From: a virus
Strand: one strand, 5' to 3'
Virus record (IMG/VR): IMGVR_UViG_3300033153_008400
Location: 1-64,000 of that record
Length of the DNA: 64,000 nt
Shown: positions 6,951 through 8,105 of the stretch, one piece after another
How positions within the stretch are numbered: position 1 is the first letter of the stretch
How the letters are laid out: each line of letters starts with the position of its first letter
Made by a program: the position numbers and the translations under genes
Notes under the pieces: model-generated
Databases searched by the model: none
What the model saw: only the letters and a program-made list of their open reading frames with translations
What the model was told of the DNA's origin: nothing

Positions 6951-7027
6951 TTGAAAAGAGAGCAGGACTCGAACCTGCGACCACCTCTTCCGTAGAAAGG
7001 AGCTCTAACCAACTGAGCTATCTCTTT
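6951..7027 (-). tRNA. tRNA-Arg(ACG)
   Basis: Acceptor AAAGAGA/TCTCTTT, D arm GCTC/GAGC, anticodon stem CCTTT/AGAGG, loop CT-ACG-GA, T arm GCAGG-TTCGAGT-CCTGC; 3' end TCAA (CCA not encoded). Confidence 0.85.
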
Positions 7028-7036
7028 TATTTACTA

Positions 7037-7120
7037 TTGTCCAGGGAGTATGATTTGAACATACGACCTCTTTCTGTGTATGATACGAAAGTGCTCTGAA
7101 CCGAACTGAGCTATCCCTGA
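7037..7120 (-). tRNA. Atypical tRNA with a 12-nt anticodon loop (possibly CAT anticodon on an extended stem)
   Basis: Acceptor TCAGGGA/TCCCTGG, D arm GCTC/GAGC, stem CTTTC/GAAAG enclosing GTATCATACACA, T arm GTATG-TTCAAAT-CATAC. Confidence 0.7.
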
Positions 7121-7126
7121 TTTTAA

Positions 7127-7298
7127 AATTATTCTAAGAGGCTTTGTTTATACTCACTCATTGTCTACTATATAGCTGTAACAAGGCTTCAATGACTATA
7201 TAGAGTGTTTACTTTGCGAAGTCCCTGTGCTTGCCGTTTGTGAGACAGGTATAATTTAATCATTTTACCTCTTCATGCCTGAACCTCTTAGAATAATT
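7127..7298 (-). ncRNA. Unassigned ~172-nt structured RNA between tRNAs
   Basis: Perfect 15-bp closing stem AATTATTCTAAGAGG/CCTCTTAGAATAATT; internal CCTGT/ACAGG, CACTC/GAGTG and CTATATAG/CTATATAG pairings; no ORF. Confidence 0.55.
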
Positions 7299-7300
7299 CT

Positions 7301-7450
7301 TTGTCGGAAGGAGTCGATTTGAACGACTGACCTCTTGTATATGGTAATCCCGACAGGATTTTAACCTGCGACCTCCTGATTAAGAATCAGGTGCTCTAAC
7401 AACTGAGCTACGGGATTGGCAAGTGCTCTACCAAGCTGAGCTACCTTCCA
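7301..7450 (-). ncRNA. Outer tRNA-like scaffold with no anticodon of its own, enclosing tRNA-Lys
   Basis: Acceptor TGGAAGG/CCTTCCG, D arm GCTC-AGCTTGGTA-GAGC, stem CTTG/CAAG, variable AGGTC, T arm AGTCG-TTCAAAT-CGACT, 3' ACAA. Confidence 0.8.
7342..7417 (-). tRNA. tRNA-Lys(CTT), nested in the anticodon loop of the outer scaffold
   Basis: 76 nt; acceptor AATCCCG/CGGGATT, stem CCTGA/TCAGG, loop TT-CTT-AA, T arm GCAGG-TTAAAAT-CCTGT, discriminator A plus encoded CCA. Confidence 0.85.
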
Positions 7451-7452
7451 AT

Positions 7453-7574
7453 TTGTTGGAAAAACAGGATTTGAACCTGTGGCCTTCATTATGTTGAACC
7501 CAACGTCCCTTACGAGACGTTGCTGGAGTCGAACCAGCCTAGAATGACGCTCTACCGAACTGAGCTATTTTCCA
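7453..7574 (-). ncRNA. tRNA-like scaffold with a 52-nt structured insert in place of the anticodon loop
   Basis: Acceptor TGGAAAA/TTTTCCA, D arm GCTC/GAGC, stem TCATT/AATGA, T arm ACAGG-TTCAAAT-CCTGT; insert contains GCTGG-TTCGACT-CCAGC and AACGTCTC-GTAA-GGGACGTT. Confidence 0.75.
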
Positions 7575-7576
7575 AT

Positions 7577-7920
7577 TTGGGGAGTATCGTTTCTCCCCAA
7601 CGTCTTATGCTGCCTGTCTTACAGGAGCATAAAAAAGTGTAATAACTTTTCCAGTTATTGGTTTATCATTAATACCCATTTACTTCACTTTACAACTGTC
7701 AAAACCCTTCGTCCCCATATGACACAGGAAAATACTATTATAGGCTTTTATTTAAGTATCTATTCTCACGTATTCTAGCTTCAAGGAACCTGTGTCTGTA
7801 ACGGCAGGAGTGTTATTCTCGATCAACTTAATGTAGGCGAGCACTCCCAAGAGTGGAGACGCTGGGAATCGAACCCAGGTCCAAATTGCTAGATTCATAA
7901 CCTAACAGTACTAATAATGT
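7577..7920 (-). ncRNA. ssrA: Circularly permuted (two-piece) tmRNA gene; tag (A)GKVITLFYAPVRQAA
   Basis: Acceptor piece ...GGAC-CTGGG-TTCGATT-CCCAG-CGTCTCC-A (~7920-7854) lies upstream of the coding piece starting GGGGACG-AAGGGTTTTGAC (7716); G3:U70 pair; ATAACT precedes resume codon GGA (7652) and tag ends GCA GCA TAA (7605); terminal hairpin 7577-7600. Confidence 0.88.
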
Positions 7921-8105
7921 TTTAAAAACTCCTATGCCTGACTAATACAGACCGTAAACCGTATCGTTTAGATAGGAGTTAAAAGTATTTCTTTGTTTTC
8001 CTTGACTTACTACGTCTGTAGCTGTGGCTTATGCCTTGTCTCCTTCAAAAACTGTGGTCACAATATCAACTACGTTATTATTGACGGCAGTTTCATATAC
8101 GGGAC

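What the first reader, a model, noticed from the sequence alone, without database searches (positions are those of the whole stretch)
6951..8100. The whole 1.1-kb cluster looks like a tRNA-punctuated ncRNA operon
Seen: between 6951 and 7980 the units abut with 2-9-nt spacers. All five tRNA frames share TAGCTCAG...AGAGC and an (A/T)GG(T/C)C variable region, suggesting local duplication. Only the nested Lys encodes CCA; the other four end NCAA. A further hairpin AACTCCTAT...ATAGGAGTT (7927-7980) and an ORF-poor structured stretch (~7990-8100) lie upstream. Only two of five frames are canonical decoders. Inference: an RNA-only translation-protection or anti-defence cassette in which tRNA folds act as cut marks and decoys.
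Basis: inference. Interest (0 to 1): 0.7.

Follow-up and report, generated by a model that had tools for sequence, protein, structure and literature searches.

The report
Phage two-piece tmRNA and tRNA cluster
This gene-free 1.2-kb stretch of a phage genome encodes a split ribosome-rescue RNA, two normal transfer RNAs, three transfer-RNA look-alikes with blocked anticodon loops and one unknown RNA; only the look-alikes and the nested gene are unusual.

Summary
All features lie on the minus strand and make up the only tRNA-type genes in a 122.7-kb phage genome.

Positions 7919-7575 hold a circularly permuted (two-piece) tmRNA gene:
- Rfam tmRNA_permuted scores 64.3 bits against a cut-off of 47, and ARAGORN calls it independently.
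- The acceptor stem has a G3:U70 pair.
- The predicted tag is GKVITLFYAPVRQAA*.

Downstream lie five tRNA frames. tRNA-Arg(ACG) and tRNA-Lys(CUU) are canonical. The other three are paralogous tRNA-shaped frames with full stems but disrupted anticodon loops:
- One has a 12-nt loop.
- One carries the whole tRNA-Lys. Removing exactly its 73 nt in silico restores a canonical tRNA(CAU).
- One carries a 45-50-nt insert that resembles a capped copy of the tmRNA's tRNA-like domain.

A stem-closed 180-nt RNA at 7121-7303 remains unidentified.

Of 80 relatives chosen by terminase similarity, none has a permuted tmRNA. One-piece tmRNAs are common among them (9 of 11 near-complete genomes).

My best reading is a co-transcribed translation-support RNA island, cut apart by host RNase P, RNase Z and the CCA-adding enzyme. 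The anti-defence/decoy idea is untested and has no direct support. Phage two-piece tmRNAs are already published. The nested tRNA frames have no counterpart in the papers my searches returned.

The parts
7981..8105 (-). ORF-free leader upstream of the RNA cluster. A promoter is presumed here but was not located.
   Evidence: No minus-strand ORF of 40 aa or more between the 62-aa ORF (8106-8294) and the cluster. Fold z-score -2.58 for 7903-8105. The sigma-70 scan found 11 sites against 11.4 expected, so it is uninformative.
7927..7980 (-). Leader hairpin AACUCCUAU...AUAGGAGUU, immediately 5' of the tmRNA acceptor piece.
   Evidence: Present in the minimum-energy fold and the centroid. Fold z-score -3.91 for 7851-7990.
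7854..7919 (-). tmRNA acceptor piece. It holds the strand that pairs with the coding piece (about 7908-7919 and 7883-7888), the T arm (7862-7878), the 3' acceptor strand CGUCUCC (7855-7861) and the discriminator A7854. CCA is not encoded; the next bases are CUC.
   Evidence: Rfam RF04321 at 7605-7902, 64.3 bits against a cut-off of 47. ARAGORN 3' tRNA domain. Co-fold of the two pieces.
7717..7853 (-). Intervening segment of the permuted tmRNA gene, expected to be removed. It contains two hairpins.
   Evidence: Lies between the ARAGORN 3' and 5' tRNA domains. Treated as a 130-nt insertion in the Rfam alignment. Fold z-score only -1.74.
7575..7716 (-). tmRNA coding piece. It holds the 5' acceptor strand GGGGACG (7710-7716, giving G3:U70), the D-loop analogue AAGGGUUUUGAC, and the tag frame 7652-7605 (GKVITLFYAPVRQAA, stop UAA at 7607-7605, inside a hairpin). 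A terminal hairpin lies at 7598-7579.
   Evidence: ARAGORN, Rfam alignment, fold (z-score -3.36).
7456..7574 (-). tL4: a tRNA-shaped frame with complete acceptor, D, anticodon and T stems. Its anticodon loop is 52 nt (7491-7542). The insert is a T-arm-like hairpin CUGG-UUCGACU-CCAG followed by the hairpin AACGUCUC-GUAA-GGGACGUU.
   Evidence: Rfam tRNA 55.8 bits with a 50-nt insertion. ARAGORN with introns allowed. Fold. Insert against the tmRNA acceptor piece: local score 27, reached by 0 of 1000 shuffles; against the coding-piece 5' end: score 18, p=0.021.
7304..7450 (-). tL3: outer tRNA-shaped frame whose anticodon loop holds the whole tRNA-Lys. Without the 73-nt Lys the loop reads CCCAUAU (anticodon CAU, with C33).
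   Evidence: My own scan, parts table. After in-silico removal of 7417-7345, ARAGORN calls a 75-nt tRNA-Met(CAT); removal of 76 nt does not give one. Neither Rfam nor ARAGORN calls the frame in situ.
7345..7417 (-). tRNA-Lys(CUU), canonical, nested in tL3.
   Evidence: Rfam 73 bits; ARAGORN.
7121..7303 (-). Unidentified RNA of about 180 nt, closed by a stem of about 18 bp (AAUUAUUCUAAGAGG / CCUCUUAGAAUAAUU). It exactly fills the gap between tL3 and tL2.
   Evidence: Fold z-score -4.10. The plus strand folds about as well, -3.88, so the strand is inferred from the neighbouring genes. No Rfam match at E<=1. The arm sequence is unique in the genome. No homologue in 709 kb of related loci or in IMG/VR by a 19-mer.
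7040..7120 (-). tL2: a tRNA-shaped frame with a 12-nt anticodon loop GUAUCAUACACA. By my reading, two extra base pairs and a bulge could present the 7-nt loop AUCAUAC (CAU).
   Evidence: Rfam tRNA 45.6 bits. ARAGORN reports 'tRNA-???' or Asp with a 5-nt intron. Parts table.
6954..7027 (-). tRNA-Arg(ACG), canonical, with discriminator U and trailer CAA.
   Evidence: Rfam 62.2 bits; ARAGORN.

Best explanation
The cluster is a translation-support RNA island of a lytic-type phage in the crAss-like supergroup.

Its parts, in order on the minus strand from about 8105 to 6954, are:
- a circularly permuted, two-piece tmRNA gene (acceptor piece, 137-nt intervening segment, then coding piece with a 15-codon tag);
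- tL4, a tRNA-shaped frame with a tmRNA-like insert;
- tL3, a tRNA(CAU)-type frame interrupted by a complete tRNA-Lys(CUU);
- a stem-closed RNA of about 180 nt;
- tL2;
- tRNA-Arg(ACG).

How it most likely works (inferred): the stretch is transcribed as one precursor. Host RNase P cuts at every 5' acceptor end, including the GGGG start of the tmRNA coding piece. RNase Z or exonucleases trim after each discriminator, and the CCA-adding enzyme completes the ends. None of the tRNA-type 3' ends except Lys is followed by CCA. The tmRNA acceptor piece pairs with the coding piece, is charged with alanine through G3:U70, and rescues stalled ribosomes with host SmpB, adding a phage-specific tag that ends in -QAA. 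Arg and Lys act as ordinary decoders.

The three aberrant frames keep only what the processing enzymes read: the acceptor, T and D arms. They most likely act as cutting and stabilising handles that define the ends of their neighbours: the tmRNA coding piece, tRNA-Lys and the 180-nt RNA.

Shown here: the identities and anatomy of the parts. Inferred: co-transcription, the cuts, charging and the handle role. The confidence given is for the whole statement; for the identities of the parts alone I would say about 0.85.
For: tmRNA:
- Rfam RF04321 scores 64.3 bits against a cut-off of 47, E=4e-10 for the window. The same search passes the cut-off in only 1 of 14 control genomes.
- ARAGORN independently calls a permuted tmRNA with the same tRNA-like domain and tag.
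- GGGGACG/CGUCUCC gives G3:U70, followed by the discriminator A (sequence).
- The two pieces co-fold with the acceptor stem plus a further helix of about 12 bp.
- The stop codon sits in a hairpin.
- The standard-order model scores only 27.4 bits.

tRNA frames:
- Rfam and ARAGORN call them.
- 104 of 105 stem positions pair. Among tL2-4, 14 of 21 pair positions differ on both sides while all three stay paired.
- tL2-4 share the T loop UUCAAAU, A73 and the CAA trailer.
- Removing the 73-nt Lys restores a canonical tRNA(CAT).

Layout and context:
- Spacers are 2-12 nt and no minus-strand terminator lies inside the cluster.
- These are the only tRNA or tmRNA genes in the 122.7-kb genome.
- One-piece tmRNAs occur in 9 of 11 near-complete relatives. 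In 5 relatives (G002, G003, G006, G007, G023) aberrant tRNA-like frames were called beside or within about 5 kb of the tmRNA. They have good acceptor and T arms and length-variable middles of 70-124 nt.

Literature: permuted tmRNA transcripts are cut by tRNA-processing enzymes (PMC11915505, passages). Phage two-piece tmRNAs are known (PMC9004378, passages).
Against: - No expression or end-mapping data exist; no sequencing run was listed.
- No close relative of the cassette was found in any collection, so nothing here rests on covariation between genomes.
- I could not identify pseudoknot PK1 upstream of the tag. Only about 45 nt separate the D-loop analogue from the resume codon.
- CCA is not encoded, and the resume codon is ARAGORN's guess.
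- The clade-specific permuted models (alpha, beta, cyano) match only the tRNA-like core at 25-26.5 bits, all below their cut-offs.
- A sequence profile built from the relatives' one-piece tmRNAs detects only the 3' tRNA-like end. Descent from them is therefore not shown.
- Six of the 11 relatives with a tmRNA match, among them G011, G004, G001, G009 and G008, had no tRNA-like frame called near it. Such handles are therefore not needed for a one-piece tmRNA.
- Where relatives do have handles, they lie 85-430 nt away or further and do not abut the tmRNA.
- The phage encodes no SmpB, and the host is unknown.
Confidence: 0.6

Rival explanations
1. Anti-defence cassette. The canonical tRNAs replace host tRNAs that are cut by anticodon nucleases. 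The three frames with blocked anticodon loops act as uncleavable decoys or sponges for tRNA-targeting defences. The tL4 insert could also sponge SmpB or tmRNA-binding factors.
For: - Phage tRNAs are known to neutralise tRNA-cleaving defences (PMC11464382 and PMC12409363; titles and starts of abstracts seen).
- Codon supply is not an obvious reason for these two tRNAs. In 65 ORFs of at least 150 aa, AAG is 21.5 per 1000 against AAA 56.2, and CGT+CGC+CGA total 8.6 per 1000 against AGA 25.0.
- Lys, Arg and CAU-type tRNAs are classic nuclease targets (PrrC/PARIS, colicin D, VapC). This is recalled, not from a call.
- The tL4 insert resembles the tmRNA's tRNA-like domain.
Against: - No test of any kind was possible.
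- A decoy for an anticodon nuclease would be expected to keep the anticodon loop that the nuclease reads; these frames have lost it.
- No defence or counter-defence protein was recognised next to the cluster.
- The cassette is a singleton, so selection on the inserts cannot be judged.
Confidence: 0.12
2. Evolutionary debris. tL2-4 are dead duplicates of a tRNA(CAU) gene, disabled by insertions into the anticodon loop, which is a recombination-prone site. They have no function of their own. Only the tmRNA, Arg and Lys matter.
For: - Exact removal of Lys restores a canonical tRNA, as expected for a recent insertion.
- The cassette is absent from all 80 terminase relatives examined. It lies in a variable region whose flanking genes are not shared with them.
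- A direct repeat GACGUUGGG at 7604 and 7507 hints at recombination (sequence).
Against: - All stems of all three frames are intact (62 of 63 positions), and 14 of 21 pair positions are changed on both sides between paralogues. Decaying pseudogenes in a 33% GC genome would not be expected to look like this.
- The insert in tL4 is itself well folded, with an 8-bp stem and a GUAA loop.
- Even a 'dead' frame would still be cut by RNase P and RNase Z, so it would still shape its neighbours' ends.
Confidence: 0.25
3. Spliced decoders. tRNA-Lys behaves as an 'intron'. RNase P and RNase Z release it, leaving 3'-OH and 5'-phosphate ends that a ligase joins to give a working tRNA(CAU) for AUG or AUA. 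tL4 is matured in a similar way.
For: - The 73-nt excision gives a 7-nt loop and a tRNA that ARAGORN accepts.
- ATA is heavily used, 32.1 per 1000, equal to ATT, so a CAU/lysidine tRNA-Ile2 would be useful.
Against: - No RtcB, Rnl2-type ligase or splicing endonuclease is present in the phage. The Rnl1 search was uninformative because its control matched nowhere.
- The restored loop has C33 instead of the near-universal U33.
- By inspection there is no bulge-helix-bulge motif at the junctions.
- Excision from tL4 gives only A34 anticodons such as AAC.
- I know of no precedent in bacteria or phages (recalled).
Confidence: 0.06
4. The tmRNA call is a false positive or a dead gene: a stray T arm plus a chance GGGG stretch.
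For: - PK1 was not found, and CCA is not encoded.
- The clade-specific models fail.
- It is the only permuted case among the 81 lineage genomes examined, counting this one.
Against: - Two independent programs agree on the same domain boundaries.
- The score is 17 bits above the curated cut-off.
- The gene has a perfect 7-bp acceptor stem with G3:U70, a P2-type pairing and a tag ending AA-stop with the stop in a hairpin.
- The relatives' bona fide one-piece tmRNAs also lack an encoded CCA and share the unusual GGUUUUGACAG.
Confidence: 0.1

Closest known systems
Two-piece (circularly permuted) tmRNA genes of Alphaproteobacteria, some Beta/Gammaproteobacteria and cyanobacteria, and of marine phages such as Melnitz and pelagimyophages (PMC11915505, PMC9004378)
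   Same: - The gene order is acceptor piece, then intervening loop, then coding piece.
- It has a T arm, a G3:U70 acceptor stem and a tag ending in AA.
- Maturation by tRNA-processing enzymes is expected.
- It passes the general model RF04321.
   Different: - It fails all three clade-specific models at 25-26.5 bits.
- No PK1 was recognised, and CCA is not encoded.
- It sits inside a tRNA cluster in a phage of the crAss-like supergroup.
- Relatives of this phage carry one-piece tmRNAs, or none.
One-piece tmRNAs of the same terminase lineage (IMG/VR records G001-G009, G011, G023)
   Same: - They share the unusual D-loop analogue GGUUUUGACAG and have no encoded CCA.
- The tag is similar, with the same spacing: KVFSLLGEEVAVAA in relatives against KVITLFYAPVRQAA here.
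   Different: - They have the standard gene order and are 320-420 nt long with a pseudoknot region.
- Beyond the 3' tRNA-like end, a sequence profile finds no similarity.
- The loci are not syntenic with this one.
Phage tRNA gene arrays (for example the 25 tRNAs of crAss001, PMC6235969 passages; T4 and T5 arrays, recalled)
   Same: The tRNA genes are tightly packed and lack CCA, consistent with co-transcription and processing by host RNase P and RNase Z.
   Different: Only 2 of the 5 frames can decode. The other three carry inserts in the anticodon loop.
Small stable RNAs encoded inside the T4 tRNA cluster (rnaC/rnaD; recalled from memory, not from a call)
   Same: They are non-tRNA stable RNAs released from a tRNA-cluster precursor, like the 180-nt element here.
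   Different: No sequence or structural comparison was made. The function is unknown in both cases.
Disrupted tRNA genes of archaea and algae: intron-containing, split and permuted forms processed at bulge-helix-bulge motifs (PMC3978253; title and start of abstract seen)
   Same: The anticodon region is interrupted by extra RNA that must be removed for decoding.
   Different: - By inspection there is no bulge-helix-bulge motif.
- The phage has no splicing endonuclease.
- The setting is bacterial, as the tmRNA shows.
- One of the inserts is itself a complete tRNA.
YrlA / bacterial Y RNA with a tRNA-like module (Rfam RF02553)
   Same: A tRNA-like module is fused to other structured RNA.
   Different: The score is 29 bits against a cut-off of 69, so this is not a member.

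Membership tests
tmRNA, permuted form (Rfam RF04321) | Covariance-model score at or above the curated cut-off | tested here: met
   64.3 bits against 47 at 7605-7902, minus strand.
tmRNA, permuted form (Rfam RF04321) | The 3' half of the tRNA-like domain lies upstream of the 5' half and the tag frame | tested here: met
   ARAGORN places the 3' domain at 7891-7853 and the 5' domain at 7716-7690. The standard-order model scores only 27.4 bits.
tmRNA, permuted form (Rfam RF04321) | Alanine identity: a G3:U70 pair in a 7-bp acceptor stem, with discriminator A | tested here: met
   GGGGACG (7716-7710) pairs with CGUCUCC (7861-7855), followed by A7854. That G3:U70 sets alanine identity is recalled knowledge.
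tmRNA, permuted form (Rfam RF04321) | Tag reading frame ending in hydrophobic residues plus a stop codon | tested here: met
   GKVITLFYAPVRQAA followed by UAA, at 7652-7605. The resume codon itself is a prediction.
tmRNA, permuted form (Rfam RF04321) | Pseudoknot PK1 between helix P2 and the resume codon | tested here: inconclusive
   I did not find one by inspection or in the folds. No pseudoknot-aware program was run.
tmRNA, permuted form (Rfam RF04321) | Two mature RNA pieces held together by base pairing, charged with alanine and bound by SmpB | not testable with these tools
   Only a predicted co-fold is available. No SmpB gene is present in the phage.
alpha-, beta- or cyano-type two-piece tmRNA (RF01849, RF01850, RF01851) | Clade-specific model score at or above its cut-off | tested here: not met
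   26.5 against 50, 25.2 against 84 and 26.2 against 70 bits. Only the tRNA-like core aligns.
tRNA (RF00005), functional decoder | Cloverleaf with a 7-nt anticodon loop | tested here: met
   Met for Arg(ACG) at 6954-7027 and Lys(CUU) at 7345-7417 only.
tRNA (RF00005), functional decoder | A 7-nt anticodon loop in tL2, tL3 and tL4 | tested here: not met
   The loops are 12, 80 and 52 nt, although the frames pass the tRNA model (45.6 and 55.8 bits; tL3 passes ARAGORN only after in-silico excision).
Archaeal/eukaryal-type intron-containing tRNA | Bulge-helix-bulge motif at the exon-intron junctions, plus a splicing endonuclease | tested here: not met
   By inspection of the folds there is no 3-nt bulge / 4-bp helix / 3-nt bulge arrangement. 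PF01974 is absent from the phage. The host's enzymes are unknown.
Crassvirales | Close similarity of hallmark proteins (large terminase) to recognised members | tested here: inconclusive
   The large terminase is 27-32% identical to crAss-like and Cellulophaga phages and 39.5% identical to Leptolyngbya phage Lbo-JY46, which is classified only to Caudoviricetes. No phylogeny was made.
YrlA (RF02553) | Model score at or above the cut-off | tested here: not met
   29 bits against 69.

The most novel reading that the evidence does not exclude
The three aberrant frames are a deliberate 'tRNA-in-tRNA' carrier system. Each is a tRNA body whose anticodon loop carries a second tRNA-type module. In tL3 the module is a complete tRNA-Lys, released by RNase P and RNase Z. 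That leaves a tRNA(CAU) pre-nicked at 32/33, which may or may not be re-ligated. In tL4 the module is a capped, non-chargeable copy of the tmRNA's tRNA-like domain, which could bind SmpB or other tmRNA or tRNA-binding proteins. Alongside this, the tmRNA would represent a new, independent origin of the two-piece form inside a phage lineage whose other members keep one-piece genes.
Probability: 0.15. Interest if true: 0.8.

Novelty: new variant of a known kind. Interest (0 to 1): 0.5.

Why it matters
Phage tmRNAs are rare. One survey found them in 2.3% of phage genomes (PMC9004378), and their role in infection has not been tested.

This tmRNA is a compact two-piece form that fits none of the three known permuted clades. 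It sits among relatives that carry one-piece genes. That makes it a natural case for asking how gene permutation of a structured RNA arises and what minimal tmRNA architecture still works.

None of the papers my searches returned describes a complete tRNA gene nested in the anticodon loop of another tRNA gene, with exact excision restoring a canonical tRNA, or a tmRNA-like module nested in the same way (this is not an exhaustive search). If these frames are functional, they would be a natural counterpart of the laboratory 'tRNA scaffold'. They would also be a simple system for studying RNase P and RNase Z punctuation in bacteria. If they are debris, they record how phage tRNA clusters are remodelled.

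Tried and rejected
Searches for relatives of the cassette all came back empty:
- BLASTN of 6900-8150 against 50,697 phage records matched only generic tRNA segments.
- The neighbouring 663-aa protein found 12 IMG/VR loci at 36-45% identity, none with a tmRNA.
- The neighbouring 588-aa protein found no relative in IMG/VR or in metagenome contigs.
- Exact or degenerate DNA patterns taken from the tmRNA coding end, the permuted layout, the 180-nt RNA and the tL4 insert found nothing.
- The 24-nt tRNA-like 3' end is shared with three unrelated phage one-piece tmRNAs and four scattered bacterial MAGs. It therefore says nothing about the host or a donor.

Other dead ends:
- Sequencing runs: none was listed, and no RNA holder was listed.
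- The idea that a decayed 5' acceptor relic at about 8046 marks an ancestral tandem duplication was rejected. The alignment is no better than shuffles (p=0.53).
- Descent of the permuted gene from the lineage's one-piece tmRNA is not demonstrable by profile search. It rests only on short shared motifs.
- Synteny with relatives: none.
- The promoter and terminator scan was uninformative.
- Neighbouring proteins have no Pfam family and only unnamed PHROGs. The ESM Atlas look-ups were uninformative.
- Phage-encoded SmpB, RtcB, Rnl2-type ligase and tRNA splicing endonuclease were not found. The Rnl1 search is void because its control matched nowhere.
- The nearest cultured relative, Lbo-JY46, has many tRNAs but no tmRNA over the cut-off.

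Closed sources:
- Supplementary tables could list comparable phage tmRNAs but could not be seen: Table S1 of PMC9004378 and Tables S1-S2 of PMC11915505.

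
Full report
**What is there**

The window is the first 64 kb of a 122,743-bp IMG/VR virus record with 32.6% G+C, judged complete by CheckV. ARAGORN on the whole genome finds tRNA-type genes only between 6953 and 7945, all on the minus strand. Rfam at curated thresholds finds five matches in the window. Four are tRNA matches (7345-7417 at 73 bits, 6954-7027 at 62.2, 7456-7574 at 55.8, 7040-7120 at 45.6; cut-off 29). The fifth is tmRNA_permuted (RF04321) at 7605-7902 with 64.3 bits against a cut-off of 47. There is no minus-strand ORF of 40 aa or more between the 62-aa ORF at 8106-8294 and the 96-aa ORF at 6638-6928, apart from two short frames that lie inside the RNA genes. 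Every sub-claim I checked held: the shared TAGCTCAG...GAGC, the variable regions, the NCAA ends, the hairpin at 7927-7980, and two canonical decoders out of five.

ARAGORN calls a permuted tmRNA. Its 3' tRNA-like domain is at 7891-7853 and its 5' domain at 7716-7690.
- The 5' strand GGGGACG pairs perfectly with CGUCUCC. This gives a G:U pair at position 3:70, the alanine identity mark (recalled knowledge), followed by discriminator A7854.
- The T arm is CUGGG-UUCGAUU-CCCAG.
- After the 5' strand comes the D-loop analogue AAGGGUUUUGAC and a 6-bp helix to the acceptor piece.
- A co-fold of the two pieces adds a further helix of about 12 bp, between about 7919-7908 and about 7676-7666.
- The tag frame is at 7652-7605 and reads GKVITLFYAPVRQAA*, with the stop codon inside a hairpin. 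A terminal hairpin at 7598-7579 follows, and the next tRNA frame starts 4 nt later.
- The standard-order tmRNA model reaches only 27.4 bits. The only upstream candidate for a standard 5' strand, at about 8046, lacks G3:U70 and aligns no better than shuffles.
- RF04321 passes its cut-off in only 1 of 14 control genomes.

I put the tmRNA identification at about 0.85-0.9. The caveats are these. I found no PK1 pseudoknot. CCA is not encoded (the next bases are CUC). The three clade-specific permuted models (alpha, beta, cyano) align only the tRNA-like core, at 25-26.5 bits, all below their cut-offs.

**The five tRNA frames**

A parts table and pair counts show 104 of 105 canonical stem positions paired.
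- Arg(ACG) and Lys(CUU) are ordinary tRNAs.
- Three frames, which I call tL2, tL3 and tL4, are paralogues. They share U1, the T loop UUCAAAU, A73 and a CAA trailer. Their stems differ from one another on both sides at 14 of 21 pair positions while all three stay paired. They are therefore maintained as tRNA shapes.
- Their anticodon loops are 12, 80 and 52 nt.
- tL2's loop, GUAUCAUACACA, could form two extra pairs and present AUCAUAC (CAU). This is my reading.
- tL3's loop is C + the 73-nt tRNA-Lys + CCAUAU. Removing exactly the 73 nt, which are the RNase P and RNase Z cut sites, leaves CCCAUAU, and ARAGORN then calls a canonical 75-nt tRNA-Met(CAT). Removing 76 nt breaks it. The 'encoded CCA' of Lys is therefore also positions 33-35 of the outer loop. 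Apart from that, no tRNA-type 3' end in the cluster is followed by CCA.
- tL4's insert folds into a T-arm-like hairpin (CUGG-UUCGACU-CCAG) and an 8-bp hairpin with a GUAA loop. Its best match in the cluster is the tmRNA acceptor piece (local score 27, reached by 0 of 1000 shuffles). The next segment matches the tmRNA coding-piece 5' end (score 18, p=0.021), in the same order as in the permuted gene. As a control, the Arg 3' half scores 23 (p=0.006), so part of the signal is the generic T loop. Topologically the insert is a tmRNA tRNA-like domain whose acceptor ends are capped by a tetraloop. It is attached through tL4's anticodon stem at the point where helix P2 would be. This is an inference.

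**The 180-nt element (7121-7303)**

It fills the gap between tL3 and tL2 exactly. It is closed by a stem of about 18 bp and folds well (z-score -4.10). The other strand folds about as well (z-score -3.88), so the strand is inferred from the neighbouring genes. It matches no Rfam family at E<=1. Its arm sequence is unique in the genome, and I found no homologue. Its identity is unknown. The long terminal duplex would suit RNase III-type or end-protected processing (inference).

**Context and relatives**

The large terminase is 39.5% identical to Leptolyngbya phage Lbo-JY46 and 27-32% identical to crAss-like and Cellulophaga phages. That places the phage in the crAss-like supergroup, not demonstrably in Crassvirales.

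IMG/VR holds 493 contigs with a related terminase. The best 80 are 75-79% identical.
- None of the 80 has a permuted tmRNA over the cut-off: 0 of 33 and 0 of 47.
- Among the 33 longest, the standard tmRNA model matches 13 at E<=0.001 and 9 over the cut-off. Among records at least 90% complete it matches 9 of 11.
- Their tags (for example ANMNKVFSLLGEEVAVAA) share K-V-x-x-L-x-x-x-x-V-x-x-A-A with the window's tag at the same spacing. Their genes share the unusual GGUUUUGACAG and also lack an encoded CCA.
- A sequence profile built from them detects only the 3' tRNA-like end in the window (E=5e-5). The loci are not syntenic. Common descent of the permuted gene is therefore suggested but not shown.
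- Twelve long relatives carry only 0-2 tRNA-model hits each.
- In five relatives (G002, G003, G006, G007, G023) ARAGORN or my scan finds tRNA-like frames beside or within about 5 kb of the tmRNA. These have good acceptor, D and T arms but aberrant middles of variable length, 70-124 nt overall. Aberrant tRNA-shaped RNAs near a tmRNA therefore recur in the lineage. However, six of the 11 relatives with a tmRNA match had no such frame called (among them G001, G004, G008, G009 and G011).

**Mechanism**

Permuted tmRNA precursors are cut by tRNA-processing enzymes into two base-paired pieces (PMC11915505, passages). Phage two-piece tmRNAs are already documented: 53 of 133 unique phage tmRNAs in one survey, mostly from marine or aquatic phages (PMC9004378, passages). 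The most economical reading is one precursor running from about 8105 to 6954, cut at every tRNA-type fold by host RNase P and RNase Z and finished by the CCA-adding enzyme. The products would be a two-piece tmRNA that works with host SmpB (the phage has none), tRNA-Arg, tRNA-Lys, the 180-nt RNA and the three carrier frames. The carriers keep only the parts that the processing enzymes read, which fits a role as cutting and stabilising handles. All of this is inferred, and no expression data could be obtained.

**Rival readings**

The anti-defence/decoy reading remains possible. Phage tRNAs do neutralise tRNA-cleaving defences (PMC11464382 and PMC12409363, abstracts). AAG and CGN are minority codons here, so codon supply is not an obvious motive. 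But nothing tests the idea, and decoys without anticodon loops are not what anticodon nucleases would be expected to read.

A debris reading fits the exact-excision result but not the intact, compensated stems.

A splicing reading lacks a ligase (one search is void) and yields a C33 loop.

**Novelty and score**

The tmRNA is a new variant of a known kind: permuted, carried by a phage, outside the three known clades, and lying among one-piece relatives. The papers returned by my four searches do not describe a tRNA gene nested in another tRNA's anticodon loop in a phage, or a tmRNA-like module nested in the same way. The searches were not exhaustive, and supplementary tables were closed. The cassette is a singleton with no expression evidence, so I score interest at 0.5.

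Noticed in passing
window 452-1537 (-): A 361-aa protein matches PHROG 1211, annotated '2-aminooxy adenylosuccinate synthetase' (PurZ-like), at E=1.3e-52. This hints that the phage may replace adenine with 2-aminoadenine in its DNA.
   Followed up: no
window 8862-10853 (-): A 663-aa protein (PHROG 1735, function unknown) has 40-43% identical homologues in 546 phage records, mostly large enterobacterial, Caulobacter and Bacillus myoviruses. It is absent from 5 of 5 terminase relatives searched. It looks like a horizontally moving accessory gene next to the RNA island.
   Followed up: partly
L015 666-840 (-), IMG/VR contig: An unrelated phage carries a very short one-piece tmRNA of about 137 nt with the same acceptor stem. 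Directly upstream, 4 nt away, is a second ...CGTCTCCACCA end, which suggests tandem or partly duplicated tmRNA genes.
   Followed up: no
L107 1150-2520 (-), relative G002: A region of more than 1.3 kb around the one-piece tmRNA of a relative holds two tRNA-like frames with aberrant middles and further T-arm-like hairpins. I did not list ORFs there. It appears to be an RNA island analogous to the one in the window.
   Followed up: partly
window 7604-7596 and 7507-7499 (-): A direct repeat GACGUUGGG lies just after the tmRNA stop codon and again inside the tL4 insert. AGACGUU (7605-7599) can also pair with AACGUCU (7524-7518), giving an alternative 91-nt cloverleaf-like fold that overlaps tL4.
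   Followed up: partly
window 7345-7417 (-): tRNA-Lys(CUU) has the T loop UUAAAAU (A instead of C at position 56) and a D loop, AGUUGUUA, without the usual GG. This may be a compensated change of the elbow pair (my reading).
   Followed up: no
window 8309-8334: A perfect 10-bp palindromic hairpin lies between the 172-aa and 62-aa ORFs. It is terminator-like on the plus strand.
   Followed up: no
whole genome: Standard stop-codon usage in 65 ORFs of at least 150 aa (TAA 53, TGA 7, TAG 5), so there is no sign of stop-codon recoding. ATA is used as often as ATT.
   Followed up: yes
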